From positions 46,500,001-46,564,000 of the forward strand of contig OZ024748.1 of NCBI GenBank assembly GCA_964016885.1: 64,000 nt of DNA, written 5' to 3'. The notes beneath the pieces are model-generated. The model was not told the DNA's origin and did not search any database. It saw nothing but the letters and a program-made list of their open reading frames with translations. The stretch comes from Eledone cirrhosa. Lineage: Eukaryota. The position numbers and the translations under genes were made by a program. Below are positions 6,176 through 57,761 of this stretch, one piece after another (positions within the stretch are counted from its first letter, which is position 1; the number at the start of each line of letters is the position of its first letter).

Positions 6176-6380
6176 CGTTTCTGAATTTGTTTAGCAAGAT
6201 TCTTTATCTGAAAACGTGTGTTGAAACCGATATTGTTATACTTTGGGAGGGTCATGTTGCCAATAACAAACACATGCACCAGTTGCTTTCACTTCAATTT
6301 ATTATAATAAATTTATAAATTTAGGAATTTATAAATTTCCGTTTGGTTGGTTGGTTCCACAACCAGATGATTGTTTATAT

Positions 6381-9064
6381 AAGAAGATTACAGCTCACCA
6401 AAAAGCAAGCAGACAGGCTAAAACTAACACTAATTCTAAACATAAAAAAGAAGATTTATATAGAATTAAGTCATCAAGAAAAACATAAGCGTAACCTAAT
6501 ACAAAAAATAACTAAGATCACCACACCAAGAGAAAAATTAATATTTATAAACCTTATATGTCTTGAAGAAAAGTACATTGTTCAAGGATGTGACAAGCAC
6601 TTTAACAAGAAACTAAAGTGGCTCAAACAGATAAAACTAAATCAAGATACTTTAGAGATTATCGATAGATATCCCGACAAAATTGACGGTATAAATATGG
6701 CCAACATCTCATTAACAGATGAATACAACAACAACAACACAAATATATACGGCAACACTACGGTCGACTCTGATGAATTATCGATATTACAACTACCACG
6801 CAATTGCCGTCGCAGGTCGATGAACAAACAGAAGCACAATTTAGTATAACTAGATCTAAACTTAGAAATATTATAGAACAGTATAGCAAGAAGCATAATA
6901 GAATGGAGGCCCAACAACTGGGAGAAAAGTCTGCAAATGGCTTGCGTAAGCTCATGCAGCGCTCGCGTAATGGAGAGATTGCATGCTTTCCAACAGACAA
7001 GTCTGGCAGAATGTCGATTGACAGTCTGTCAAACGACATCCAGGCAATGCAACCCCACCTCACTAACACAAGAGAAGTAACACTACAAGAGCATGAGGAT
7101 AGAGAAAAAGCCCTCAATGCCCATATGGTGATGTGGACAAATATAATGCAGCCCAACAAAGAGACTGCCAACAACTTCCAGGCCTGGAACAATGACGTGC
7201 CAGCGTTGTATGGGCTTCGAAAAGACCATAAAACGAACAGTGACCCTGTCACAGGACCACCAACACGGCCAGTCTGTGGAGCTAACATTGCTAGTAACTA
7301 CAGACTTTCCTACTTCCTCTCCCTGATCATACGCCCCATCATTGAAATGTCTCCAGATATATGTGACAGCACGAAGGACCTCTTCAGCAGAATCTGCGAG
7401 AGTAACCGATCTAGGGACCTAACAAACTGCATAATAGGTAGTATGGATGTTGTGTCCCTATATCCATCTATTGACGTGGATTTTGCTGTGGAGAAATGCG
7501 TAGAAATGATCAGTGAGAGCAATGTTGAATTCCGTGGGATTGATACCAGTGAGCTGGGACTCCTACTTAAACTTACCTATAGTAATAATTATCTAGATAC
7601 ATATTGCCTTAGCAACCTGTGCCCTACAAGACCAGCAAGAGGCAGACCACCTACCATTACCTCAATGGCCAAGAAAACCCACACTGATAGATGGAACGGG
7701 TGGACCAGAGCCATACGGACCCCCGAAAACCACGATGAACTAAAGAAAATGATTGCACATGCGGTGGGGGCCAGCATAAAATTAAGCCTTAAGGAACATA
7801 TGTTCAAATTTAATGAAAAACATATGCCGAAGAGGAGGGAGCAGCCATTGGTGTTAGCATTGCAGGCGACATAGCTAACCTATTCATGGTATGCTGGGAC
7901 AATAGACTTAAACTTAAACTTAAAGAACAGTTAGAAGACCCCTTAACCCTGATAATGTACTCCCGCTACGTTGTAAAAACACCCCCACTAGAGAACAGTC
8001 AGGAATTAGAGAAAAACACCATGGAAAGCATCCAGCAAATAGCTAACTCCATCCACCAGAGTATTAGAGTTACTATAGACTACCCAAGCAAACACCCCAA
8101 CCATCGATTACATGTACTAGACACAGAGCTCTGGTTAGATACCATTAATAACAAAAAACAAATCCTCCATTCCCATTATGCCAAACCCATGACTTCCAAA
8201 TATCTGATCCACCGAAACTCAGCTGTTTCGGACCATACCAAAATCAACATACTGATTGCGGATTTGGTACGGGTGATGAGAAACGTGTCCCGCATGGGCA
8301 CCACAAAGAACTAGAGAGACACATACAACACTTCATCCACCGTATGCAGTTCTCTGGTTACAATCAGAGAGATAAAATCAGAGTATATAGAGGAGCCAGA
8401 ACCAAATGGGAAAAAATGGTAAATAATGACACAAATGGGACCTGACCCTTGTATAGGAGCAAATTTTGGAACTAGGAATAAGGTTAATAGAATAAACTCA
8501 TGGTATGATAGCAATACATACCAGAGTGTAATGTTCATTGATACAACCCCTAGAGGTGAATTAGCTTACAAATTCAGAAGGGCCGTAGATAAACATAAAC
8601 TCAATATTAGGATAGTAGAAAGACCAGGTACCTCCGTAAAAGCACTTATTAACAATACATATCCTTTTCAAAGACCTCCCTGTATAGATAAAAAATGTAT
8701 AATCTGTAAATTAAGCCCTCATATTAACTGTAAAACTAGAAATGTAGTATATAGCATAAGATGTACCGAAGGACAATGTAGAGAAAAGAATATAGTGTAC
8801 ATAGGTGAGACAGCACGTAGTAGAGGGGAACGGATAAATGAACACTCGCGAGACCTTCAAGATAGTAAAGAATCATCTGTACTCTACCAACAAGCTAAAA
8901 TAGAACATAAGGGTAAATTAGAGAACATAGAAATAAAAATAGAATTTACACACAGAAAAGACGCAATGTTTATACAAATCACAGAGGCAATAAACATAAA
9001 TGAACTCCAACCAAAATTAAATAGAAAACATGAATGGAACAGCAACATCACAACTTACAATTAA
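6381..9064 (+). pseudogene. PLE reverse transcriptase + C-terminal GIY-YIG endonuclease, frameshifted
   Basis: PTDKSG, PALYGLRKDHK, PTRPVC, motif A SMDVVSLYPSI, motif B EGAAIGVSIAGDIANLFM (after frameshift near 7818), YSRYV lacking DD, VLD; EN CxxxxCxxC...NVVYSIRC...YIGETARS...RINEH. Split over ORFs 6343, 6804, 7886 and 8426. Confidence 0.92.
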
Positions 9065-9261
9065 GGACAAAATGAAAACACACACGCACATAGAACAAAC
9101 AACCAACCAGTAACATGTAAATAAACGATAAATAAACAAATATAAACACACACAGACACCCGGATGTAACACATGCGCAAATTACCCACACAACATACAC
9201 AAAAACAAGATGGCGTAGGACAGAACAAAGGAGAGGCACAAATACAAAGAAAAGAATCCCC

Positions 9262-9305
9262 AGTCACTGAAGAGGTCACATAATGTGTGACGAAATAACT
9301 TTGAC
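9262..9305 (+). ncRNA. Type I hammerhead in PLE pLTR
   Basis: GUCA-CUGAAGA-G-GUCACA/UGUGAC-GAAA-UAAC-UU^UGAC; a second copy at 16369-16413 (-) has a CUA site. Confidence 0.8.
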
Positions 9306-9451
9306 AATATATAAACAATCATCTGGTTGTGGAACCAACCAACCAACCGGAAATTTATAAATTTATAAATTTATAAATTTATTATAATAAATTGAAGTGA
9401 AAGCAACTGGTGCGTGTATATCTTATTGGCAACATGACCCTCCCAAAGTAT

Positions 9452-9532
<81 letters not shown>

Positions 9533-20508: not shown

Positions 20509-20561
20509 ATTTTATTATACATATTTCGGATGTACAAAAGTACGTCCTCATCAGACAAAAT
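20509..20561 (-). ncRNA. Type I hammerhead
   Basis: AUUUUGU-CUGAUGA-GGACGUAC/GUACAUCC-GAAA-UAUGUA-UA^AUAAAAU; second copy at 57669-57721 (+). Confidence 0.8.
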
Positions 20562-21016: not shown

Positions 21017-21144
21017 TTTATATATATATACACACATATATGTATATATATACACACATACATGTATATATATATATATACACATATATGTATATTTTTA
21101 TATATATACACAAATACATGTATATGCATATATACACATATATG

Positions 21145-21553
21145 TAATTCTTTTCTTTCGCACTCTTGGTCTAGCAGGTCGTTCTTTTTCTCTCTCTCGT
21201 CTACGATTTCACAGAACTCACGTTCACCGAAATCACAGACTAGATCCATTCTTCCTCCCGTTAGACCTGTACGGAATTCCTTCCTTGCTTACATTCCAAC
21301 CAGGTTTGATGGTCTTTATTCTCTCTCGTTCACGATTTCACCGAATTTAAATTCATAGAAATTTGGGACTTGACTTCTTCTTCCTCACTTTTCGTTGCTC
21401 ACCATTTTTGTTGTTTACACTCTTGTCCCCTTTATTTACGTGTCCCAACGACTTTTTTAGCCGTTGCTCGCACCAACCGGAGGTATATGGTCTTTAAAGC
21501 AATGAAATACCAATGATGGTTGGAAGATCACTGATGAAGGACTAACTTTATTC

Positions 21554-21555
<2 letters not shown>
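21145..21555 (+). mobile_element. TA-flanked repeat ending in a rearranged hammerhead (21467-21540)
   Basis: Close copy at 56850-57410; diverged inverse copy at 27075-27650. Confidence 0.85.
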
Positions 21556-27066: not shown

Positions 27067-27074
27067 TATAGATA

Positions 27075-27650
27075 TATATGAAAAATATGGGGAGAAGAAT
27101 ACTGCATGGTTGCACATGGATAACATGTTATAAAATGAGTCCCTCATCAGTGATTTGCCAACGATCATTGGTATTTCATCGCATTAAAAATCATATACCT
27201 CACGTTGGTGCGAAAATAACTAAAATAAGTTATTAGGACAATTGAAACGCGTAAAGCGAGTGAGACAAGTAAAGAACACAGGGGAAAGCTAACCGAAGAT
27301 GGAAAGAAACACAAGCGACATGGTTATTCTAGCAGCATAAGCTGTGTGAATATATGAGCGAGTAAGAAACAGACCTTCCGCTAGTGAATCCGATGTTAGA
27401 AAGAAGGAAAATGGTTTTCGTAGCGAACGGGAGGAAGTAAGAAGGGGAGAAACAGAGAGTGAGTGAGTGGAAGTGCGAGGAAGAGGTCAGTAGAGAGAAA
27501 GTGTTAACTGACAGGACAGAGGGGACGAAAGAAAGTAAGAACAGAGAGAACGAGGGAGCAGTAGAGAGAAAGAGAGAAACACAGAATCTCAGTTTAGGTA
27601 AATATATGAAAAATATGGGGAGAAGAATACTGCATGGTTAACATGTTATA
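27075..27650 (-). mobile_element. About 526-bp unit with terminal direct repeat and rearranged hammerhead (27141-27213)
   Basis: ATATGAAAAATATGGGGAGAAGAATACTGCATGGTT occurs at both ends; TA-flanked. Confidence 0.8.
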
Positions 27651-34519: not shown

Positions 34520-35238
34520 CCTGACATACATATATGTATACAGACGTACAGTAGTATGTATATATATATACATACATGCATACATATATATATATATGCA
34601 CGTTTCGGTTTACCGAACATTTATTATAATGCTCGGTTTGTTTGTTTGTAATACATACTACTTGTTTGAAATACATACTACTGTACGTCTGTATACATAT
34701 ATGTATGTACGTATATATACATACATACTTACATTTAAGTAAGTGCCGTAGTAAGAGTGAGAAATAAAATTTCGTTTCATTCTATTCCATTTATCGTTTT
34801 CGGTGCGCCGAGCTGATTGAACTCACTCGATATTCAAATTAGGCTGATCAGCCGTTAATATGCATAAGGAAAGTATATACATTCAGACGTTCAACCATCT
34901 GGCAGGAAGGTATACGATGCTGACGATAGCTAATATAGCTTGAAACTAGTACATCGTTCCTGTGTCAGTGTTGAACAAAAAGGTGACGTGGTTGCCTAAA
35001 CGCTGTACGGCGTAATCCGGGCTGTTTGTTTGTCTACAAACAAACAAAGCAAGCATTATAATAAATGTTCGGTAAACCGATACGTGCATATATATATATA
35101 TGTGTGTGAATTGTATGTATATATATACATACTACTGTACGTATGTATACATATATGTATGTACGTATACATACATACTTACATTTAAGTAAGTGCCGTA
35201 TTAAGAGTGAGAAATGAAATTTCGTTTCATTCTATTAC

Positions 35239-42022: not shown

Positions 42023-42061
<39 letters not shown>

Positions 42062-43044
42062 AACCAGTAAGACCCCGACAGCTGAGCTCAAGCCGTTTCG
42101 ACGGCTAATTCTGGACTAAATGAACATTTATCCTGGTATTAAAATAGCCGATCTTCTCAAGGGGTAATTCCATATATGGTCAAAGTGATTGTCAAAAATC
42201 AGTAGTAATTCTGTGGTTGCAAATTAGTAGGGGAGATGGTGGCTAAACCTGCCAGTAGGAGAAAGAGGGGAGGGGGTGGAGTAGACCCAATCAAGCGTTG
42301 GTAGTGCCAGCTACAGCTGGGCATGAGGTCAAAGAAGATACAGGGGAGGGGGAGGGGGAGGAAGTCGGAACGGTAGGTAGAACAATGGGGGGTAAAAATA
42401 GGAAAGAAAAAATACTGAGAGTGAAGAAAAGCAAATAAGTGTAAAGAAAAAATTAAATTCTACGACCTAGGTGTCAGGCTATTGTTAGGCGAGAATAAAA
42501 TAAAGAAAGAAAGAAAGAAGTAAATAAATAAATAAATAAATAAATAAGGAAATAAGTAAAAGAACTAGGTGGGACGAATTAGGCAAGGACCCTTTTAAGA
42601 GGTATAAGTACGTAAATGATACGGTGACTGGTCAACAAAAGGGGCCAAAATACTAAAGAGACTACCACGAAATAAACAATAAAGGTTTCCATCCCGGGCC
42701 GGCAACGACCCAGTGCAGCAAAGTGAACTTGTACGACATAATAATTCTGAGTCCCGGGAAAATATAACTAATGCTAACTCTAAAAGATCTAAAACAAGCT
42801 ACATGAAAGTTCGTACGAAATAAAGGTAGAATACGGAGAAATAAGTTCAGAATCCACCCCGCCCAGAAGAAAAGCGAAGCAAGAAATACTGAAACGAAAA
42901 AATAAGGCATAAGTGCCACTAAGAAATATAGAGGGCACAGAGAATAGTGGGAGCGGTCGGAAAAGGGGGGCAAGTATCCGGGGTCTAAGCCAACTGCTAT
43001 AAAGGGCGGAGTCCGCCAAATCTATCAAAGACTAGGGGAGGGGG

Positions 43045-43176
43045 GAAGAAACTTTACAAATGCTGTTTTCGACGGACCAACTCCTAAACAAGAAAGATGA
43101 ACTGGTTACTGCATGTAAACATAGATTGCGTAGGACTTACCTCGCCCTCAAACCCCATAATGACCCGGGGGGGTAG
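43045..43176 (+). pseudogene. C-terminal tail of PLE endonuclease (Hydra-clade-like)
   Basis: Translates EETLQMLFSTDQLLNKKDELVTACKHRLRRTYLALKPHNDPGG*, resembling the recalled LLNKRxELxxxCRH motif. Confidence 0.6.
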
Positions 43177-44272
43177 ACTAGGGCTATAACACCCCAGTTG
43201 CCGATTTTGCAATGGGTAACCCCTGCTTGCCAAGGAAGACGTAAGATCTTCTTTGTATTCTTTTATCGCATCCTTTATTTCCTTCCCCCCTCTCTCCTTT
43301 GTCCTTCTACCCCAGCTCTTCTCCTTTGTCGGCGTCTTTTCTCGCCCACCCGAGGCTGCCCTTTGGCCCCATGTAGCCTTAGTACCCCCACTCCCCCCTC
43401 CCCTAGTCTTTGATAGATTTGGCGGACTCCGCCCTTTATAGCAGTTGGCTTAGACCCCGGATACTTGCCCCCCTTTTCCGACCGCTCCCACTATTCTCTG
43501 TGCCCTCTATATTTCTTAGTGGCACTTATGCCTTATTTTTTCGTTTCAGTATTTCTTGCTTCGCTTTTCTTCTGGGCGGGGTGGATTCTGAACTTATTTC
43601 TCCGTATTCTACCTTTATTTCGTACGAACTTTCATGTAGCTTGTTTTAGATCTTTTAGAGTTAGCATTAGTTATATTTTCCCGGGACTCAGAATTATTAT
43701 GTCGTACAAGTTCACTTTGCTGCACTGGGTCGTTGCCGGCCCGGGATGGAAACCTTTATTGTTTATTTCGTGGTAGTCTCTTTAGTATTTTGGCCCCTTT
43801 TGTTGACCAGTCACCGTATCATTTACGTACTTATACCTCTTAAAAGGGTCCTTGCCTAATTCGTCCCACCTAGTTCTTTTACTTATTTCCTTATTTATTT
43901 ATTTATTTATTTATTTACTTCTTTCTTTCTTTCTTTATTTTATTCTCGCCTAACAATAGCCTGACACCTAGGTCGTAGAATTTAATTTTTTCTTTACACT
44001 TATTTGCTTTTCTTCACTCTCAGTATTTTTTCTTTCCTATTTTTACCCCCCATTGTTCTACCTACCGTTCCGACTTCCTCCCCCTCCCCCTCCCCTGTAT
44101 CTTCTTTGACCTCATGCCCAGCTGTAGCTGGCACTACCAACGCTTGATTGGGTCTACTCCACCCCCTCCCCTCTTTCTCCTACTGGCAGGTTTAGCCACC
44201 ATCTCCCCTACTAATTTGCAACCACAGAATTACTACTGATTTTTGACAATCACTTTGACCATATATGGAATT

Positions 44273-44366
44273 ACCCCTTGAGAAGATCGGCTATTTTAAT
44301 ACCAGGATAAATGTTCATTTAGTCCAGAATTAGCCGTCGAAACGGCTTGAGCTCAGCTGTCGGGGT
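44273..44366 (+). ncRNA. U3-A8 variant hammerhead (mirror copy 42072-42165 on minus)
   Basis: ACCCC-UUGAGAA-GAuCGGCUA...UAGCCGUC-GAAA-CGGC..GCU-GUC^GGGGU. Confidence 0.8.
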
Positions 44367-44486
44367 CTTACTGGTTCCTATTACCCACTCTACTACCTCA
44401 AGTATTGAGTACTTTGGTGCGTTATGGTCCACCTGGTTCCTTACCACATTTCCTTCGTTATATATATATATATATATATATATTAT

Positions 44487-45011: not shown

Positions 45012-48000
45012 ACGTTATTATTATTGAATAGCGTTTACGTTATTATTATTGAATAGCGTTTACCTTATTATTATTGAATAGCGTTTACCTTATTATTATT
45101 GAATAGCGTTTACCTTATTATTATTGAATAGCGTTTACCATATTATTATTGAATAGCGTTTACCTTATTATTATTGAATAGCGTTTATGTTATTATTGAA
45201 TAGCGTTTACCTTATTATTATCGAATAGCGTTTACCTTATTATTATTGAATAGCGTTTACCTTATTAGAGGGTTGGACACCATGCTTTGAATCATAGAGT
45301 TACGGCCCTTGCCATTCTGAGTTCGAATCCCGCCAAGGTTAACTTTGCCTTTCATCCTTACGGGGTCGATAAAATAAAGTACCAGTAATGCACTGGGTAA
45401 TTGCTGGCCTTGTGCCAAAAGTAGAAACAATTATTGAATAGCGTTTATGTTATTATTGAATAGCGTTTACCTTATTATTATTGAATAGCGTTTACCTTAT
45501 TATTATTGAATAGCGTTTACCTTATTATTATTGAATAGCGTTTACCTTATTATTATTGAATAGCGTTTACCTTATTATTATTGAATAGCGTTTACCTTAT
45601 TATTATTGAATAGCGTTTACCTTATTATTATTGAATAGCGTTTACCTTATTATTATTGAATAGCGTTTACCTTATTATTATTGAATAGCGTTTACCATAT
45701 TATTATTGAATAGCGTTTACCTTATTATTATTGAATAGCGTTTATGTTATTATTGAATAGCGTTTACCTTATTATTATTGAATAGCGTTTACCTTATTAT
45801 TATTGAATAGCGTTTACCTTATTATTATTGAATAGCGTTTACCATATTATTATTGAATAGCGTTTACCTTATTATTATTGAATAGCGTTTATGTTATTAT
45901 TGAATAGCGTTTACCTTATTATTATTGAATAGCGTTTACCTTATTATTATTGACTAGCGTTTACCTTATTATTATTGAATAGCGTTTATGTTATTATTGA
46001 ATAGCGTTTACCTTATTATTATTGAATAGCGTTTACCTTATTATTATTGAATAGCGTTTACCTTATTATTATTGAATAGCGTTTACCTTATTATTATTGA
46101 ATAGCGTTTACCTTATTATTATTGAATAGCGTTTACCATATTATTATTGAATAGCGTTTACCTTATTATTATTGAATAGCGTTTATGTTATTATTGAATA
46201 GCGTTTACCTTATTATTATTGAATAGCGTTTACCTTATTATTATTGAATAGCGTTTACCTTATTATTATTGAATAGCGTTTACCATATTATTATTGAATA
46301 GCGTTTACCTTATTATTATTGAATAGCGTTTACCTTATTATTATTGAATAGCGTTTACCATATTATTATTGAATAGCGTTTACCTTATTATTATTGAATA
46401 GCGTTTACCTTATTATTATTGAATAGCGTTTACGTTATTATTATTGAATAGCGTTTACCTTATTATTATTGAATAGCGTTTATGTTATTATTGAATAGCG
46501 TTTACCTTATTATTATTGAATAGCGTTTAACTTATTATTATTGAATAGCGTTTACCTTATTATTATTGAATAGCGTTTACCTTATTATTATTGAATAGCG
46601 TTTACGTTATTATTATTGAATAGCATTTACCTTATTATTATTGAATAGCGTTTACCTTATTATTATTGAATAGCGTTTACCTTATTATTATTGAATAGCG
46701 TTTACCTTATTATTATTGAATAGCGTTTACGTTATTATTATTGAATAGCGTTTACCTTATTATTATTGAATAGCGTTTACCTTATTATTATTGAATAGCG
46801 TTTACCTTATTATTATTGAATAGCGTTTACCTTATTATTATTGAATAGCGTTTACCTTATTATTATTGAATAGCGTTTACCTTATTATTATTGAATAGCG
46901 TTTACCTTATTATTATTGAATAGCGTTTACGTTATTATTATTGAATAGCGGTTACCTTATTATTATTGAATAGCGTTTACCTTATTATTATTGAATAGCG
47001 TTTACCTTATTATTATTGAATAGCGTTTACCTTATTATTATTGAATAGCGTTTACCTTATTATTATTGAATAGCGTTTACCTTATTATTATTGAATAGCG
47101 TTTAACTTATTATTATTGAATAGCGTTTACCTTATTATTATTGAATAGCGTTTACGTTATTATTATTGAATAGCGTTTACCTTATTATTATTGAATAGCG
47201 TTTATGTTATTATTGAATAGCGTTTACCTTATTATTATTGAATAGCGTTTAACTTATTATTATTGAATAGCGTTTACCTTATTATTATTGAATAGCGTTT
47301 ACCTTATTATTATTGAATAGCGTTTATGTTATTATTATTGAATACCGTTTACCTTATTATTATTGAATAGCGTTTACCTTATTATTATTGAATAGCGTTT
47401 ATGTTATTATTATTGAATAGCGTTTACCTTATTATTATTGAATAGCGTTTATGTTATTATTATGGAATAGCGTTTACGTTATTATTATTGAACAGCGTTT
47501 ACCTTATTATTATTGAATAGCGTTTACCTTATTATTATTGAATAGCGTCTATGTTATTATTATTGAATAGCGTTTACCTTATTATTATTGAATAGCGTTT
47601 ATGTTATTATATTTGAATAGCGTTTACCTTATTATTATTGAATAACGTTTACCTTATTATTATTGAATAGCGTTTACGTTATTATTATTGAATGGCGTTT
47701 ACCTTATTATTATTGAATAGCGTTTACGTTATTATTATTGAATAGCGTTTACCTTATTATTATTGAATAGCGTTTACCTTATTATTATTGAATAGCGTTT
47801 ACGTTATTATTATTGAATAGCGTTTATGTTATTATTATTGAATAGCCTTTACGTTATTATTATTGAATAGCCTTTACGTTATTATTATTGAATAGCCTTT
47901 ACGTTATTATTATTGAATAGCGTTTATGTTATTATTATTGAATAGCCTTTACGTTATTATTATTGAATAGCGTTTACGTTATTATTATTGAATAGCGTTT

Positions 48001-48482
48001 ATGTTATTATTATTGAATAGCGTTTACCTTATTGTTATTGAATAGCGTTTACCTTATTATTATTGAATAGCGTTTACGTTATTATTATTGAATAGCGTTT
48101 ACCTTATTATTATTGAATAACGTTTACGTTATTATTATTTAATAGCGTTTACCTTATTATTATTGAATAGCGTTTATGTTAATATTATTGAATAGCGTTT
48201 ACCTTATTATTATTGAATAGCGTTTACGTTATTATTATTGAATAGCGTTTACCTTATTATTATTGAATAGCGTTTATGTTATTATTATTGAATAGCGTTT
48301 ACCTTATTATTATTGAATAGCGTTTATGTTATTATTATTGAATAGCGTTTACCTTATTATTATTGAATAGCGTTTACCTTATTATTATTGAATAGCGTTT
48401 ACCTTATTATTATTGAATAGCGTTTACCTTATTATTATTGAATAGCCTTTACTTTATTATTATTGTATAGCGTTTACGTTAT
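45012..48482. repeat. 25-bp minisatellite (CCTTATTATTATTGAATAGCGTTTA)n, roughly 130 units
   Basis: Direct reading; 22-bp variants occur. Confidence 0.97.
45267..45433 (+). mobile_element. SINE family A inserted in the minisatellite
   Basis: 5'-truncated head; tail merges into ATTATTGAATAGCG. Confidence 0.9.
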
Positions 48483-48486
48483 TATA

Positions 48487-48786: not shown

Positions 48787-48991
48787 CATATATGTGTGTG
48801 TAACTATATATATATATATATATATATTAGAAATTGGAATAAATGCTCTGAAATAGCGATATATATGTGAATATAGACATAGAATATTCGAAAATATTCT
48901 GTATGTTTATAATAAACATTTTGAAGACCTAATCGCTATAGAATAGAATACGTCACGTATTACAATTAGATTCTCGATAAAAGCAAGGGAA

Positions 48992-49034
48992 GTAATCTAC
49001 GCGTTTCATTCTCGTTAGAAATCATCAGGACTAC
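48992..49034 (-). ncRNA. Type I hammerhead, first of 7 minus-strand copies at 310-bp spacing
   Basis: GUAGUC-CUGAUGA-U-UUCU(aacg)AGAA-U-GAAA-CGCG-UA^GAUUAC. Confidence 0.85.
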
Positions 49035-51211
49035 ATATCCAGTGCTTTTATCGAGAATGACACAGCTAGAGACTTATAGAATACTTAGCTGTGTACAGGA
49101 ACTGGTTTGAAAGAGCGGTTGCCGGTCCGGCAGAAATTAGAAATTGGAATAAATGCTCTGAAATAGCGATATATATGTGAATATAGACATAGAATATTCG
49201 AAAATATTCTGTATGTTTATAATAAACATTTTGAAGACCTAACCGCTATAGAATAGAATACGTCACGTATTACAATTAGATTCTCGATAAAAGCAAGGGA
49301 AGTAATCTACGCGTTTCATTCTCGTTAGAAATCATCAGGACTACATATCCAGTGCTTTTATCGAGAATGACACAGCTAGAGACTTATAGAATACTTAGCT
49401 GTGTACAGGAACTGGTTTGAAAGAGCGGTTGCCGGTCCGGCAGAAATTAGAAATTGGAATAAATGCTCTGAAATAGCGATATATATGTGAATATAGACAT
49501 AGAATATTCGAAAATATTCTGTATGTTTATAATAAACATTTTGAAGACCTAATCGCTATAGAATAGAATACGTCACGTATTACAATTAGATTCTCGATAA
49601 AAGCAAGGGAAGTAATCTACGCGTTTCATTCTCGTTAGAAATCATCAGGACTACATATCCAGTGCTTTTATCGAGAATGACACAGCTAGAGACTTATAGA
49701 ATACTTAGCTGTGTACAGGAACTGGTTTGAAAGAGCGGTTGCCGGTCCGGCAGAAATTAGAAATTGGAATAAATGCTCTGAAATAGCGATATATATGTGA
49801 ATATAGACATAGAATATTCGAAAATATTCTGTATGTTTATAATAAACATTTTGAAGACCTAATCGCTATAGAATAGAATACGTCACGTATTACAATTAGA
49901 TTCTCGATAAAAGCAAGGGAAGTAATCTACGCGTTTCATTCTCGTTAGAAATCATCAGGACTACATATCCAGTGCTTTTATCGAGAATGACACAGCTAGA
50001 GACTTATAGAATACTTAGCTGTGTACAGGAACTGGTTTGAAAGAGCGGTTGCCGGTCCGGCAGAAATTAGAAATTGGAATAAATGCTCTGAAATAGCGAT
50101 ATATATGTGAATATAGACATAGAATATTCGAAAATATTCTGTATGCTTATAATAAACATTTTGAAGACCTAATCGCTATAGAATAGAATACGTCACGTAT
50201 TACAATTAGATTCTCGATAAAAGCAAGGGAAGTAATCTACGCGTTTCATTCTCGTTAGAAATCATCAGGACTACATATCCAGTGCTTTTATCGAGAATGA
50301 CACAGCTAGAGACTTATAGAATACTTAGCTGTGTACAGGAACTGGTTTGAAAGAGCGGTTGCCGGTCCGGCAGAAATTAGAAATTGGAATAAATGCTCTG
50401 AAATAGCGATATATATGTGAATATAGACATAGAATATTCGAAAATATTCTGTATGTTTATAATAAACATTTTGAAGACCTAATCGCTATAGAATAGAATA
50501 CGTCACGTATTACAATTAGATTCTCGATAAAAGCAAGGGAAGTAATCTACGCGTTTCATTCTCGTTAGAAATCATCAGGACTACATATCCAGTGCTTTTA
50601 TCGAGAATGACACAGCTAGAGACTTATAGAATACTTAGCTGTGTACAGGAACTGGTTTGAAAGAGCGGTTGCCGGTCCGGCAGAAATTAGAAATTGGAAT
50701 AAATGCTCTGAAATAGCGATATATATGTGAATATAGACATAGAATATTCGAAAATATTCTGTATGTTTATAATAAACATTTTGAAGACCTAATCGCTATA
50801 GAATAGAATACGTCACGTATTACAATTAGATTCTCGATAAAAGCAAGGGAAGTAATCTACGCGTTTCATTCTCGTTAGAAATCATCAGGACTACATATCC
50901 AGTGCTTTTATCGAGAATGACACAGCTAGAGACTTATAGAATACTTAGCTGTGTACAGGAACTGGTTTGAAAGAGCGGTTGCCGGTCCGGCAGAAATTAG
51001 AAATTGGAATAAATGCTCTGAAATAGCGATATATATGTGAATATAGACATAGAATATTCGAAAATATTCTGTATGTTTATAATAAACATTTTGAAGACCT
51101 AATCGCTATAGAATAGAATACGTCACGTATTACAATTAGATTCTCGATAAAAGCAAGGGAAGTATTCTATAAGTCTCTAGCTGTGTCATTCTCGATAAAA
51201 GCACTGGATAT

Positions 51212-51254
51212 GTAGTCCTGATGATTTCTAACGAGAATGAAACGCGTAGATTAC
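51212..51254 (+). ncRNA. Type I hammerhead, first of 3 plus-strand copies (also 51522-51564, 51832-51874)
   Basis: Same motif as 48992-49034. Confidence 0.85.
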
Positions 51255-51994
51255 TTCCCTTGCTTTTATCGAGAATCTAATTGTAATACGTGACGTATTC
51301 TATTCTATAGCGATTAGGTCTTCAAAATGTTTATTATAAACATACAGAATATTTTCGAATATTCTATGTCTATATTCACATATATATCGCTATTTCAGAG
51401 CATTTATTCCAATTTCTAATTTCTGCCGGACCGGCAACCGCTCTTTCAAACCAGTTCCTGTACACAGCTAAGTATTCTATAAGTCTCTAGCTGTGTCATT
51501 CTCGATAAAAGCACTGGATATGTAGTCCTGATGATTTCTAACGAGAATGAAACGCGTAGATTACTTCCCTTGCTTTTATCGAGAATCTAATTGTAATACG
51601 TGACGTATTCTATTCTATAGCGATTAGGTCTTCAAAATGTTTATTATAAACATACAGAATATTTTCGAATATTCTATGTCTATATTCACATATATATCGC
51701 TATTTCAGAGCATTTATTCCAATTTCTAATTTCTGCCGGACCGGCAACCGCTCTTTCAAACCAGTTCCTGTACACAGCTAAGTATTCTATAAGTCTCTAG
51801 CTGTGTCATTCTCGATAAAAGCACTGGATATGTAGTCCTGATGATTTCTAACGAGAATGAAACGCGTAGATTACTTCCCTTGCTTTTATCGAGAATCTAA
51901 TTGTAATACGTGACGTATTCTATTCTATAGCGATTAGGTCTTCAAAATGTTTATTATAAACATACAGAATATTTTCGAATATTCTATGTCTATA

Positions 51995-52086
<92 letters not shown>

Positions 52087-53334: not shown

Positions 53335-54205
53335 AAAAGAAAATTTCGCCCTACATGGCTGAATACAATAAATGTAATCTGAGTTTTTCGAATGTTAATA
53401 ATAACATTCGATTCATTTGCAATTTTGCAAACAAGCCTCAATTTTATAGCCATGTCAGGAGAATGAACACTTCAGGAGAGTGAACGATGAGCTGTACTGA
53501 TGAAGGGTGATACCCAGAAACATTAGTGTCTGCAGTTCTGTTCGCATACCAACACAAGAGCAAGAATGAAGTGTTCATTCTCCTGACATGGCTATAAAAT
53601 TGAGAATTGTTTGCAAAATTGCAAACGAATCGAATGTTATTATTAATATTCGCTTTCCAGCAGAGTTACGTCTCTTTACGGTTTGAGTTCAAATCCCGCC
53701 GAGGTTAACTTTGCCTTTCATCCTTACGGGGTCAATAAAATAAAGTACCAGTAATGTACTGGGTAATTGCTGGCCTTGTGCCAAAAGAAGAAACAATTAT
53801 TAATATTCGAAAAACTCCGATTACTTTTATTATATTCAGCCATGTAGAGCTAAATTTTTTTTTTATTTCAATTTGGCAAAGCCGGCCATTTATCGCTCGT
53901 ATACAGGAAACTGACTGATCAGCCAGTGTGGTAATATGCAAATCAGGCCGATCAGTCACTGTGTAATTTTGAAAATAGCATATATTTTCACTAGCTCTGA
54001 CAGCTTGGTAGGTGAACAGTGAGCTGTACTGATGAAGGGTGATACCCAGAAACACTAGTGTCTGCAGTTCTGTTCGCACGCCAACATAAGAGCAAGAATG
54101 AAGTGTTCATTCTGCTGACATGGCTATAAACTTGAGACTTGTTTGCAAAATTGTAAACGAATCGAATGTTATTATTAATATTCGAAAAACTCCGACTACA
54201 TTTAT
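53335..54205 (+). mobile_element. 375-bp-period dimer with inverted 5' piece, two hammerheads (53489-53538, 54021-54070) and a SINE insertion
   Basis: GAGCUGUA-CUGAUGA-A-GGGU/ACCC-A-GAAA-CACUAGUG-UC^UGCAGUUC; SINE 53653-53795 flanked by ATTATTAATATTCG TSD. Confidence 0.88.
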
Positions 54206-56516: not shown

Positions 56517-56808
56517 AATGTAAAAATTTGAACAGGGACAAGACAGAGAGGCAGTACAATAAATGTTTATTAATTTCACGCTCAGGAGAGTGGGGGGTAG
56601 GTGGGGGACGACGTTTCGGGCATAAGCCCTTCCTCAGGTGAGAAGTGTGTGGACCAAGTGTGGGAAGGTGTGTAAAGTTCGGAGAAAGGTCACGGCGGAT
56701 TAGATCGGGGTTGAGCCAGTTGTTAAGTTATGTTCCAAGGATGGAAGCCGTGTGAGCGTGTATTATATATAATGGAAAAATTTGAACAGGGACAAAACAG
56801 AGAGGCAG

Positions 56809-56852: not shown

Positions 56853-57405
56853 CGTTCTTCTGCCTCTCCTCTTTCTCTGTATCTTTACCCTCTCTAACAG
56901 TCACTCTCTCTGTTAGCCTCTTCCTCACCCTTCACTCACTCACTCTCTGTTACTACCTCTCCTCCTCCTCCTTCTTCCCGTTTGACCTGTGCGTAATTCT
57001 TTTATTTCGCACGCTTGGCCAGGCTGGTTCGCCTTTTTTCTCTCTCTCGTCTACGATTTCACAGAATTTATGTTCACCAAATTCACAGACTAGATTCCTT
57101 CTTCCTCCCGTTAGACCTGTACGGAATTCCTTCCTTGCTCACATTCCAACCAGGTTTGATGGTCTTTATTCTCTCTCGTTCACGATTTCACCGAACTTAT
57201 ATTCATGGAAATTTGGGACTTGACTCCTTCTTCCTAATTTTTCGTTGCTTCACCATCTTTGTTTGTTTACACTCTCGCTGTCCCCTTTATTTACGTATCC
57301 CAACGACTTTTTTTAGCCGTTGCTCGCACCAACCGGAGGTATATGGTCTTTAAAGCGAAGCAATACCTGTGATGGTTGGAAGATCACTGATGAAGGACCA
57401 CTTTA

Positions 57406-57547: not shown

Positions 57548-57761
57548 ACAAATATTAATAAAATAGATGTTTTTTTGATTAATTACATTTTATTATACAT
57601 ATTTCGGATGTACTACCTTGATTAAATCTTAACCATTTAACATCTCAGGGTATGTCATGTATCATTATATTTTGTCTGATGAGGACGTACTGTTGTACAT
57701 CCGAAATATGTATATTAAAATGTAATTGATCAAAAGAACATCTATTTTATTAATATTTGTA

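What the first reader, a model, noticed from the sequence alone, without database searches (positions are those of the whole stretch)
21467..21540. Hammerhead with its three strands in reversed (non-circularly permuted) order, supported by covariation
Seen: the order is GGUAU-A^UGGUCUU (cleavage strand), then GAAA-UACC, then AAGAUCA-CUGAUGA. This is the reverse of the cyclic order shared by HHR types I, II and III. Stem III is GGUAU/AUACC, extended by CCAACC/GGUUGG, and stem I is UGGUCUU/AAGAUCA. The diverged copy at 27141-27213 (minus) has compensatory versions CCAACG/CGUUGG and UGAUUU/AAAUCA with an unchanged core. An upstream UCGC could pair with GCGA just before GAAA (27k and 57k copies) and replace stem II. 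Known: natural non-circularly permuted HHRs have been reported (Eckert et al. 2023, from memory) and are rare. Inference: a pseudoknotted or inter-unit ribozyme in a roughly 526-bp retrozyme-like family that standard HHR models would miss.
Basis: partly seen in the sequence, partly recalled or inferred. Interest (0 to 1): 0.9.

Follow-up and report, generated by a model that had tools for sequence, protein, structure and literature searches.

The report
Rewired hammerhead ribozyme in animal retrotransposons
This high-copy animal repeat carries the parts of a hammerhead self-cutting RNA in a rare scrambled order, held together by extra conserved helices, and the same design ends a group of LINE jumping genes in several animals, where it likely cuts their transcripts and would point to copying through circular or multi-unit RNA.

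Summary
The cleavage, GAAA and CUGAnGA blocks lie in the order S-G-C (Eckert's type SGC), in a non-coding tandem repeat with about 11,000 pattern matches in this 3-Gb animal genome. CUGAnGA is not followed by stem II. Stem II is completed by an upstream strand, and two extra helices (a, b) form a four-way junction at the A9-10.1 link. The claimed stem III extension is better read as the stem I-II contact helix, folded back by a kink-turn or bulge. All six helices covary across families, and the catalytic core is conserved in copies retrieved without it. The same architecture, with unrelated helix sequences, follows the endonuclease ORF of R2-superfamily (HERO/Zebulon-like, name recalled) LINEs here and in other animals' DNA, often in partial tandems. 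I found no description of this. Published SGC ribozymes came from metatranscriptomes and have an unbroken stem II. Cleavage is untested, no RNA run was listed, and the focal copy is slightly damaged. Verdict: new structural variant of the hammerhead ribozyme, in a new genomic setting.

The parts
21144..21555 (+). 5'-truncated copy (about 410 nt) of a non-coding ~634-nt tandem retrozyme-like unit, set between TA-rich microsatellites
21442..21445 (+). helix a, 5' strand (pairs with 21539-21542 and closes the whole motif)
   Evidence: G-C/A-U double change in 7 of 20 rows
21446..21466 (+). hairpin b, between helix a and stem II (arm of the four-way junction)
   Evidence: (5 of 8 pairs with double changes)
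21467..21471 (+). stem II 10.x strand supplied from upstream (10.1 = C21467, unpaired with U21503 in this family; G-C in the G, J, H, M families)
21473..21479 (+). helix d, 5' strand (inferred equivalent of the stem I-II interaction helix)
21480..21481 (+). kink-turn-like G-A, non-bulged strand
   Evidence: G in 169 and A in 171 of 177 copies; k-turn consensus recalled
21482..21494 (+). block S: stem III 5' strand, U16.1-A17, predicted cut 3' of A21487, stem I 5' strand
   Evidence: cut site inferred by analogy with hammerheads
21495..21498 (+). 4-nt linker from stem I to stem II (U-A-A conserved in 173-177 of 177 copies)
21499..21511 (+). block G: stem II 11.x strand, G12-A13-A14-A15.1, stem III 3' strand; position 21501 differs from the common family sequence and breaks one pair
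21512..21523 (+). 3-nt bulge, kink-turn-like G-A, helix d 3' strand
   Evidence: G in 175 and A in 176 of 177 copies
21524..21537 (+). block C: stem I 3' strand and C3-A9 core
21539..21542 (+). helix a, 3' strand, one nucleotide after A9
27069..27639 (-). copy of the related ~531-nt family; motif at 27139-27239 with all six helices
56850..57410 (+). third copy (focal-type family); motif at 57297-57398 with A13 changed to C, so probably inactive

Best explanation
This is a conserved six-helix RNA motif with the hammerhead core in S-G-C order that likely folds within one molecule into a self-cleaving ribozyme, predicted to cut 3' of A21487, and likely trims multi-unit transcripts of a non-coding retrotransposon into unit-length RNAs that would be closed into circles and copied back into (TA)n repeats. 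Shown from sequence: block order; six covarying helices; a conserved core; zero to one nucleotide at each arm of the a/b/II junction; tandem, 5'-truncated and inverted copies; 3' ends that lie past the predicted cut; and the same motif after the ORF of R2-superfamily LINEs. Inferred: C11.1-G12 stays continuous, so stem II can stack on the G12.A9 pair as usual, while A9 crosses into helix a and hairpin b crosses into 10.1 (a stacked four-way junction). The kink-turn or bulge folds helix d back so that it can clamp stems I and II. Because genomic copies run across the cut site, the template must be re-closed, multimeric or uncut. The focal copy itself is a truncated, slightly damaged member and may cleave poorly. 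Which enzyme copies this non-coding family is open: its insertion signature is Penelope-like, but its ribozyme is shared with the LINEs.
For: Covariation: 16 of 21 pairs with double changes and 92% of cells paired against 74% shuffled (24 rows); 18 of 33 pairs and 97% paired over all six helices (20 rows); 0 of 500 shuffles reached these in either call. 19 of 20 hand-picked representatives form II, d, b and a in strict geometry, against 0-9 of 100 upstream shuffles each; own-family pairing is 0.91-1.00 and cross-family pairing 0.51-0.82. Core-free retrieval (9,418 matches): in 28 colinear copies of the first 30, the 11 core positions differ in 6 of 308 cells, against 134 of 896 paired and 135 of 532 unpaired cells; position 17 is A or C and position 7 is U or C. 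Independent lineages: families H (34 loci) and M (2 loci) among 63 metagenome matches have all six helices with other sequences. Retrieval by protein alone gave family J in 21 of 30 own-genome loci and a complete motif with kink-turn in L412. Type SGC cleaves in vitro (PMC10085705).
Against: No cleavage or expression data: no RNA holder was listed. No sharp pile-up of 5' ends at the predicted cut (5 of 18 nearby ends, p = 0.11), and many arrays read through it. In the focal family group the 10.1-11.1 position pairs in only 4 of 11 representatives. The focal copy's nested minimum-energy fold is a competing structure (z -1.0). Shuffle controls ignore relatedness and R-scape was not available. 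Representatives were chosen by hand. Stems I and III and part of stem II were in the search patterns or the selection. Eckert et al. state that known alignments have at most 1-2 nt inserted beside CUGAnGA, so activity of this wiring has no precedent in that paper. In family K helices a and b are unclear in decayed copies.
Confidence: 0.74

Rival explanations
1. The same helices form between two units or two molecules (a strand-swapped dimer), so the ribozyme cuts only in tandem or paired RNAs.
For: Units occur in tandem. Helices I, II, III and d are joined by very short linkers. Vertebrate retrozyme hammerheads need dimers for faster cleavage (PMC7229834 passages).
Against: A kink-turn or a 3-5 nt bulge between III and d is kept across families, which is what a fold-back within one molecule needs. 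LINE copies carry the motif about 4 kb apart at best. Monomeric type SGC constructs cleave in cis.
Confidence: 0.12
2. The motif is a hammerhead-derived fold kept as a recognition or priming signal for reverse transcriptase and no longer, or only rarely, cuts.
For: Copies end 10-90 nt past A9 (136 of 177 meet (TA)n there) and read through the predicted cut. The 10.1-11.1 pair is often lost in the focal group.
Against: The catalytic positions are the least variable ones, while positions 7 and 17 vary as they do in active hammerheads. The autonomous families keep G10.1-C11.1 (9 of 9 G, J, H, M representatives).
Confidence: 0.1
3. It is a box C/D snoRNA-like or other kink-turn RNA whose UGAUGA and CUGA words only resemble a hammerhead core.
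For: A tandem G.A kink-turn-like loop is present and conserved.
Against: No Rfam match at gathering score in 6 loci. There is no 5' box C. Three helices covary in exact hammerhead register around U16.1-H17, GAAA and CUGAnGA. Position 7 varies among U, C and A.
Confidence: 0.02
4. The arrangement is chance complementarity in a young AT-rich repeat.
For: Many copies are 98-100% alike.
Against: Double-sided changes occur in all six helices, and the same geometry appears in unrelated sequences from other animals.
Confidence: 0.02

Closest known systems
Type-SGC hammerhead ribozymes (HRIMA-1 and variants; Eckert et al. 2023, PMC10085705)
   Same: Block order S-G-C; short linker from stem I to stem II (3 nt there, about 4 here); an extra helix tying stems I and II; a link from stem III to that helix; an intact core.
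   Different: There CUGAnGA is followed directly by stem II. Here a contiguous stem II reaches at most 2 bp in 9 of 9 families printed. The 10.x strand comes from upstream through a four-way junction with two extra helices, and helix d is also tied to stem III on both strands. That paper found none in genomes of known organisms; here there are thousands in animal DNA, tied to retrotransposons.
Non-LTR retrozymes of animals (Cervera and de la Pena 2020, PMC7229834; bioRxiv 10.64898/2026.07.22.740005)
   Same: Non-coding tandem units with one hammerhead each, dispersed at high copy number.
   Different: Those are defined by type I hammerheads, and the preprint searched only type I models. Units here are about 470-800 nt and carry the SGC four-way form. 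Circular RNA is not shown here.
Penelope-like elements with pseudo-LTR hammerheads (Craig et al. 2021, PMC8557442)
   Same: Partial tandems, 5' truncation, 5' inversions (35 of 137 ends flagged), (TA)n targets and two alternative 3' ends about 40 nt apart.
   Different: No reverse transcriptase or GIY-YIG ORF is linked to the focal family. None of 30 GIY-YIG loci carried this motif convincingly (one weak candidate). Their hammerheads are type I.
R2-superfamily RLE LINEs with ribozymes (R2 and its 5' HDV-like ribozyme; HERO/Zebulon clade, name recalled for accessions AAN12398.1 and BAC82599.1 seen)
   Same: The motif-bearing ORFs are related to that Tetraodon polyprotein (57% identity over 91% of the query), whose best solved relatives are R2 proteins. 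A cut in a tandem would create the 5' end of the next unit, as the R2 ribozyme does.
   Different: The ribozyme is a hammerhead, not HDV-like, and lies about 55-270 nt after the ORF end, about 100 nt before the element's 3' end.

Membership tests
Hammerhead ribozyme | Conserved core C3-A9, G12-A15.1 and U16.1-H17 | tested here: met
   Intact in the focal copy; 6 of 308 core cells differ in copies retrieved without the core
Hammerhead ribozyme | Stems I, II and III in register around the core, with covariation | tested here: met
   stem II is completed by an upstream strand
Hammerhead ribozyme | R10.1-Y11.1 pair closing stem II | tested here: inconclusive
   G-C in 9 of 9 G, J, H, M representatives; paired in 4 of 11 of the focal group; C.U in the focal copy
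Hammerhead ribozyme | Site-specific self-cleavage 3' of H17 | not testable with these tools
   No assay; no RNA holder listed
Hammerhead types I, II, III (circular permutations) | Cyclic block order C-G-S | tested here: not met
   Order is S-G-C; no Rfam match at gathering score in 6 loci
Type SGC (Eckert 2023) | 5'-to-3' order S, G, C | tested here: met
Type SGC (Eckert 2023) | Block C uninterrupted: stem II strand directly after CUGAnGA | tested here: not met
   At most 2 contiguous bp in 9 of 9 families printed; helix a follows A9 instead
Type SGC (Eckert 2023) | Interaction helix joining the far ends of stems I and II | tested here: met
   Helix d starts 0-2 nt after the 10.x strand and pairs with the strand before stem I 3'; covaries. 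Equivalence to Eckert's helix is inferred from position.
Non-LTR retrozyme | Non-coding tandem units, each with a hammerhead | tested here: met
Non-LTR retrozyme | Type I hammerhead | tested here: not met
   S-G-C order with a four-way junction
Non-LTR retrozyme | Expressed as unit-length linear and circular RNA | not testable with these tools
   No RNA holder listed
Non-autonomous Penelope-like element | Partial tandems, 5' inversions, microsatellite target | tested here: met
Non-autonomous Penelope-like element | 3' end shared with an autonomous Penelope-like partner | tested here: inconclusive
   No fixed linkage in fetched loci or in 30 of at least 150 GIY-YIG loci, mostly one family
Kink-turn | Three-nt bulge followed by tandem G.A/A.G pairs between two helices (consensus recalled) | tested here: met
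   The four G/A positions are kept in 169-176 of 177 focal-group copies and in L412; families G1, G2, H and M have a plain bulge or loop instead

The most novel reading that the evidence does not exclude
A fourth natural wiring of the non-circularly permuted hammerhead, opened inside the CUGAnGA block by a four-way junction, is the standard 3'-end module of HERO/Zebulon-like LINEs across animals. It cuts tandem transcripts into unit RNAs that are closed into circles, so these LINEs would be reverse-transcribed from circular RNA, which explains their partial tandems. The module has also been taken over by over ten thousand non-coding retrozyme copies in this genome.
Probability: 0.45. Interest if true: 0.93.

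Novelty: new variant of a known kind. Interest (0 to 1): 0.86.

Why it matters
It breaks the stated rule that the hammerhead's three blocks cannot be interrupted, and so adds a topology that current descriptors and Rfam models miss. It moves non-circular permutations from rare metatranscriptome contigs into animal genomes at high copy number. It gives a LINE clade a hammerhead at its 3' end and a testable reason for its tandem structure, namely a circular or multimeric RNA template. It also suggests rechecking elements reported to lack hammerheads, such as the Naiad 'half core' cases. A ribozyme with a free two-helix port at A9 may be a useful scaffold for RNA switches.

Tried and rejected
Expression: no RNA holder listed. 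Contigs of two runs of unrecorded kind were laid. Organism B (run X4) holds relatives of the focal group with paired stem I changes; nothing of X4 lay on family J, which proves nothing. Viral contigs: 9 and 11 pattern matches. The 11 had stem I pairing of 3 of 5 or less and the 9 showed no such fold by eye, so all were taken as chance. No RLE relative was found there. Of 63 metagenome matches, 26 with stem I pairing of 3 of 5 or less were set aside as chance and one (L268, 4 of 5) was not followed. Rfam E-value scan of the window: the 150 of 396 rows shown were microsatellite hits and the rest were not seen. First 5'-end map was spoiled by microsatellite hits and redone. Long arrays end more often in the 81 nt from the predicted cut onward (23) than in the next 140 nt (12, p = 0.0005) or the 79 nt before (9, p = 0.012), but TA microhomology, stalling at structure and locus selection could each cause this, so I do not count it as evidence of cleavage. 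My early ideas of a stem II from the linker and a downstream U-rich tract, of a standard hammerhead across tandem units, and of a snoRNA were dropped. No Penelope partner was found. The Zebulon paper is not held, so that name and its tandem structure are recalled. Nested folding cannot show stems I and II; it recovers a, b, d and III for 4 of 6 motifs folded, but not for the focal or 27k copy.

Full report
1. Observation. The sequence at 21482-21537 holds the three hammerhead blocks in the order cleavage site (S), GAAA (G), CUGAUGA (C), with stems III and I as described. The window has two more copies: 27139-27239 on the minus strand with all helices, and 57297-57398 with A13 changed to C. The window lies in a 3.0-Gb animal genome. 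My impression that it is a cephalopod is recalled from its repeats and was not tested. Three mutually exclusive patterns gave 6,282, 1,024 and 3,711 matches against 0, 2 and 1 for the reversed patterns, about 11,000 as a lower bound.

2. The element. The motif sits near the 3' end of non-coding, pyrimidine-rich units that occur singly or in direct tandems. Most units are 470-800 nt; the focal family is 630-637 nt and the 27k family 523-533 nt. Of 137 mapped 5' ends, 58 abut (TA)n and 35 were flagged as inverted, and they are spread over the unit. In 136 of 177 unique copies (TA)n follows within 90 nt of A9, mostly at two preferred ends; many of the other 41 run on into a next unit. This matches the insertion signature that Craig et al. 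give for Penelope-like elements (PMC8557442, passages). The focal copy is a 5'-truncated piece, 21144-21555.

3. The full fold. Laying out diverged families shows six helices. From 5' to 3': a, hairpin b, the 10.x strand of stem II, d, III, the cut site, I, a 4-nt linker, the 11.x strand, GAAA, III', d', I', CUGAnGA, a'. In 20 hand-picked representatives, 19 form II, d, b and a in strict geometry: a abuts b with 0-1 nt, b abuts 10.1 with 0-1 nt, and a' starts 0-1 nt after A9. Shuffling the upstream 70 nt met the same test in 0-9 of 100 trials each. Own-family pairing is 0.91-1.00 per helix and cross-family pairing 0.51-0.82. Pair counts on MAFFT alignments gave 16 of 21 pairs with double changes for II, d, III and I (24 rows) and 18 of 33 for all six helices in the focal group (20 rows), with 0 of 500 shuffles as high. 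These shuffles ignore relatedness, and the measure of further pair types did not exceed them (133 and 461 of 500). A contiguous stem II after A9, as in published SGC ribozymes, reaches at most 2 bp in the 9 families printed.

4. Core conservation without circularity. A pattern built from a, b, II and d, with no catalytic nucleotide, gave 9,418 matches. Of the first 30 loci, 28 were colinear; two had lost the region and were dropped. The 11 core positions differ in 6 of 308 cells, against 134 of 896 paired and 135 of 532 unpaired cells. Position 17 is A or C and position 7 is U or C. Copies are not independent, and five rows with a one-base deletion inflate the last columns.

5. Geometry (inferred). 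C11.1-G12 stays continuous, so stem II can stack on G12.A9. A9 crosses into helix a and hairpin b crosses into 10.1, as in a stacked four-way junction. Helix d follows the 10.x strand and pairs with the strand in front of stem I', which is where Eckert et al. place the stem I-II interaction helix (PMC10085705, parts 1-6 of 8 read, supplements not read). Here d is also tied to stem III on both strands, which needs a sharp bend. In the focal group that loop is a 3-nt bulge plus tandem G.A pairs, kept in 169-176 of 177 copies, matching the kink-turn consensus as I recall it. Other families have a plain bulge or loop. So all three inter-block links of the non-circular family are closed, and the chain is opened inside block C instead.

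6. Beyond this repeat. A metagenome scan for the S, G and C blocks of one diverged family gave 63 loci. Of these, 34 from two assemblies (family H) and 2 from a third (family M) are animal repeats with all six helices in other sequences; 26 look like chance and 1 was not followed. In H and M the motif follows the end of an ORF related to the Tetraodon polyprotein Q7T1J8, whose best solved relatives are R2 proteins. I recall this as the HERO/Zebulon clade. Searching by that protein alone found 150 scored matches in this genome. Of the top 30 loci, 21 carry family J of the motif about 95 nt after the match (14 with an intact core by regex) and 6-8 carry a decayed family K with S-G-C order but unclear a and b. 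The same protein search in prokaryotic assemblies returned three apparent host contigs among 8 loci. L412 has the complete motif (III 5, I 6, II 5, d 8, b 11, a 3 bp, with kink-turn), L411 a decayed one, and L413 a possible plain SGC form. In L260, L281, L316 and L411 the motif runs on into a zinc-finger ORF start, and L296 and L329 show the same run-on by eye: these are partial tandems.

7. How it likely works. In a tandem transcript, a cut at position 17 makes the 5' end of the next unit, and two cuts release a unit-length RNA. Genomic copies end about 60-140 nt past the cut site and often read through it, so the template cannot be a simply cut linear monomer. It must be re-closed, as shown for animal retrozymes (PMC7229834, passages), or multimeric or uncut. 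5' ends are modestly enriched just after the cut but show no sharp peak, and this has other explanations. No RNA run was listed. The focal copy has C.U at 10.1-11.1 and one broken pair in stem II, and its nested fold prefers another structure, so family-typical or LINE copies are better test constructs. The enzyme that moves the non-coding family is unresolved.

8. Novelty. Type SGC is known and active in vitro, from 583 predicted sequences, with none reported in genomes of known organisms. Nine literature searches and passages or sections of PMC3088659, PMC13725137, PMC10162972, PMC10294476, PMC13580325, PMC2684134 and bioRxiv 10.64898/2026.07.22.740005 (parts 1-2 of 5) showed no four-way-junction SGC form and no hammerhead at the 3' end of these LINEs. 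Subscription papers and Eckert's supplementary alignments were not seen and may bear on this. PMC13725137 mentions hammerhead variants with additional helices without detail in the passages I saw. Rfam gave no match at gathering score in 6 loci. Verdict: a real, conserved, probably catalytic new variant of the hammerhead ribozyme in a new genomic setting, awaiting a cleavage assay.

Noticed in passing
window 48826-52007: A 310-bp tandem array, in two opposed blocks, carries a canonical C-G-S (type I-like) hammerhead in each unit (10 hits): an ordinary non-LTR retrozyme beside the SGC family.
   Followed up: partly
window 53491-53536 and 54023-54068 (+): Two canonical type I-like hammerheads 532 bp apart, with an A.A mismatch at 10.1-11.1, suggesting this position tolerates a mismatch in this genome.
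   Followed up: partly
window 57670-57720 (+), 34914-34957 (+), 20510-20560 (-), about 56605-56642 (-): Further canonical hammerhead-like motifs in other repeats.
   Followed up: no
window 6325-9470 (+): Decayed Penelope-like element (RT-like frames, GIY-YIG at E 3e-4) with an inverted 5' repeat, a (TA)n 3' end and a C-G order hammerhead core in its 3' repeat.
   Followed up: partly
L413, about 390 nt after the ORF match: Possible plain Eckert-type SGC hammerhead (contiguous stem II 3 bp, III 4 bp, I 3 bp, interaction helix 6 bp) behind a distant RLE ORF and before a trinucleotide repeat; one sequence only.
   Followed up: partly
L411, L412, L413: Contigs filed in prokaryotic genome assemblies hold animal-type retrotransposon sequence and look like host contamination.
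   Followed up: no
PMC8557442 supplement 1: Eight Naiad elements are marked 'HHR_half_core', including one from an octopus; they could hide permuted hammerheads. I did not examine their sequences.
   Followed up: no
L383, L386, L398: A subfamily with no extra nucleotide after A9 and C at 11.1, which could allow a different pairing at the junction.
   Followed up: no
window 42057-44381 and 45015-48485: A perfect 990-nt inverted repeat and a 25-bp satellite of about 139 copies.
   Followed up: no
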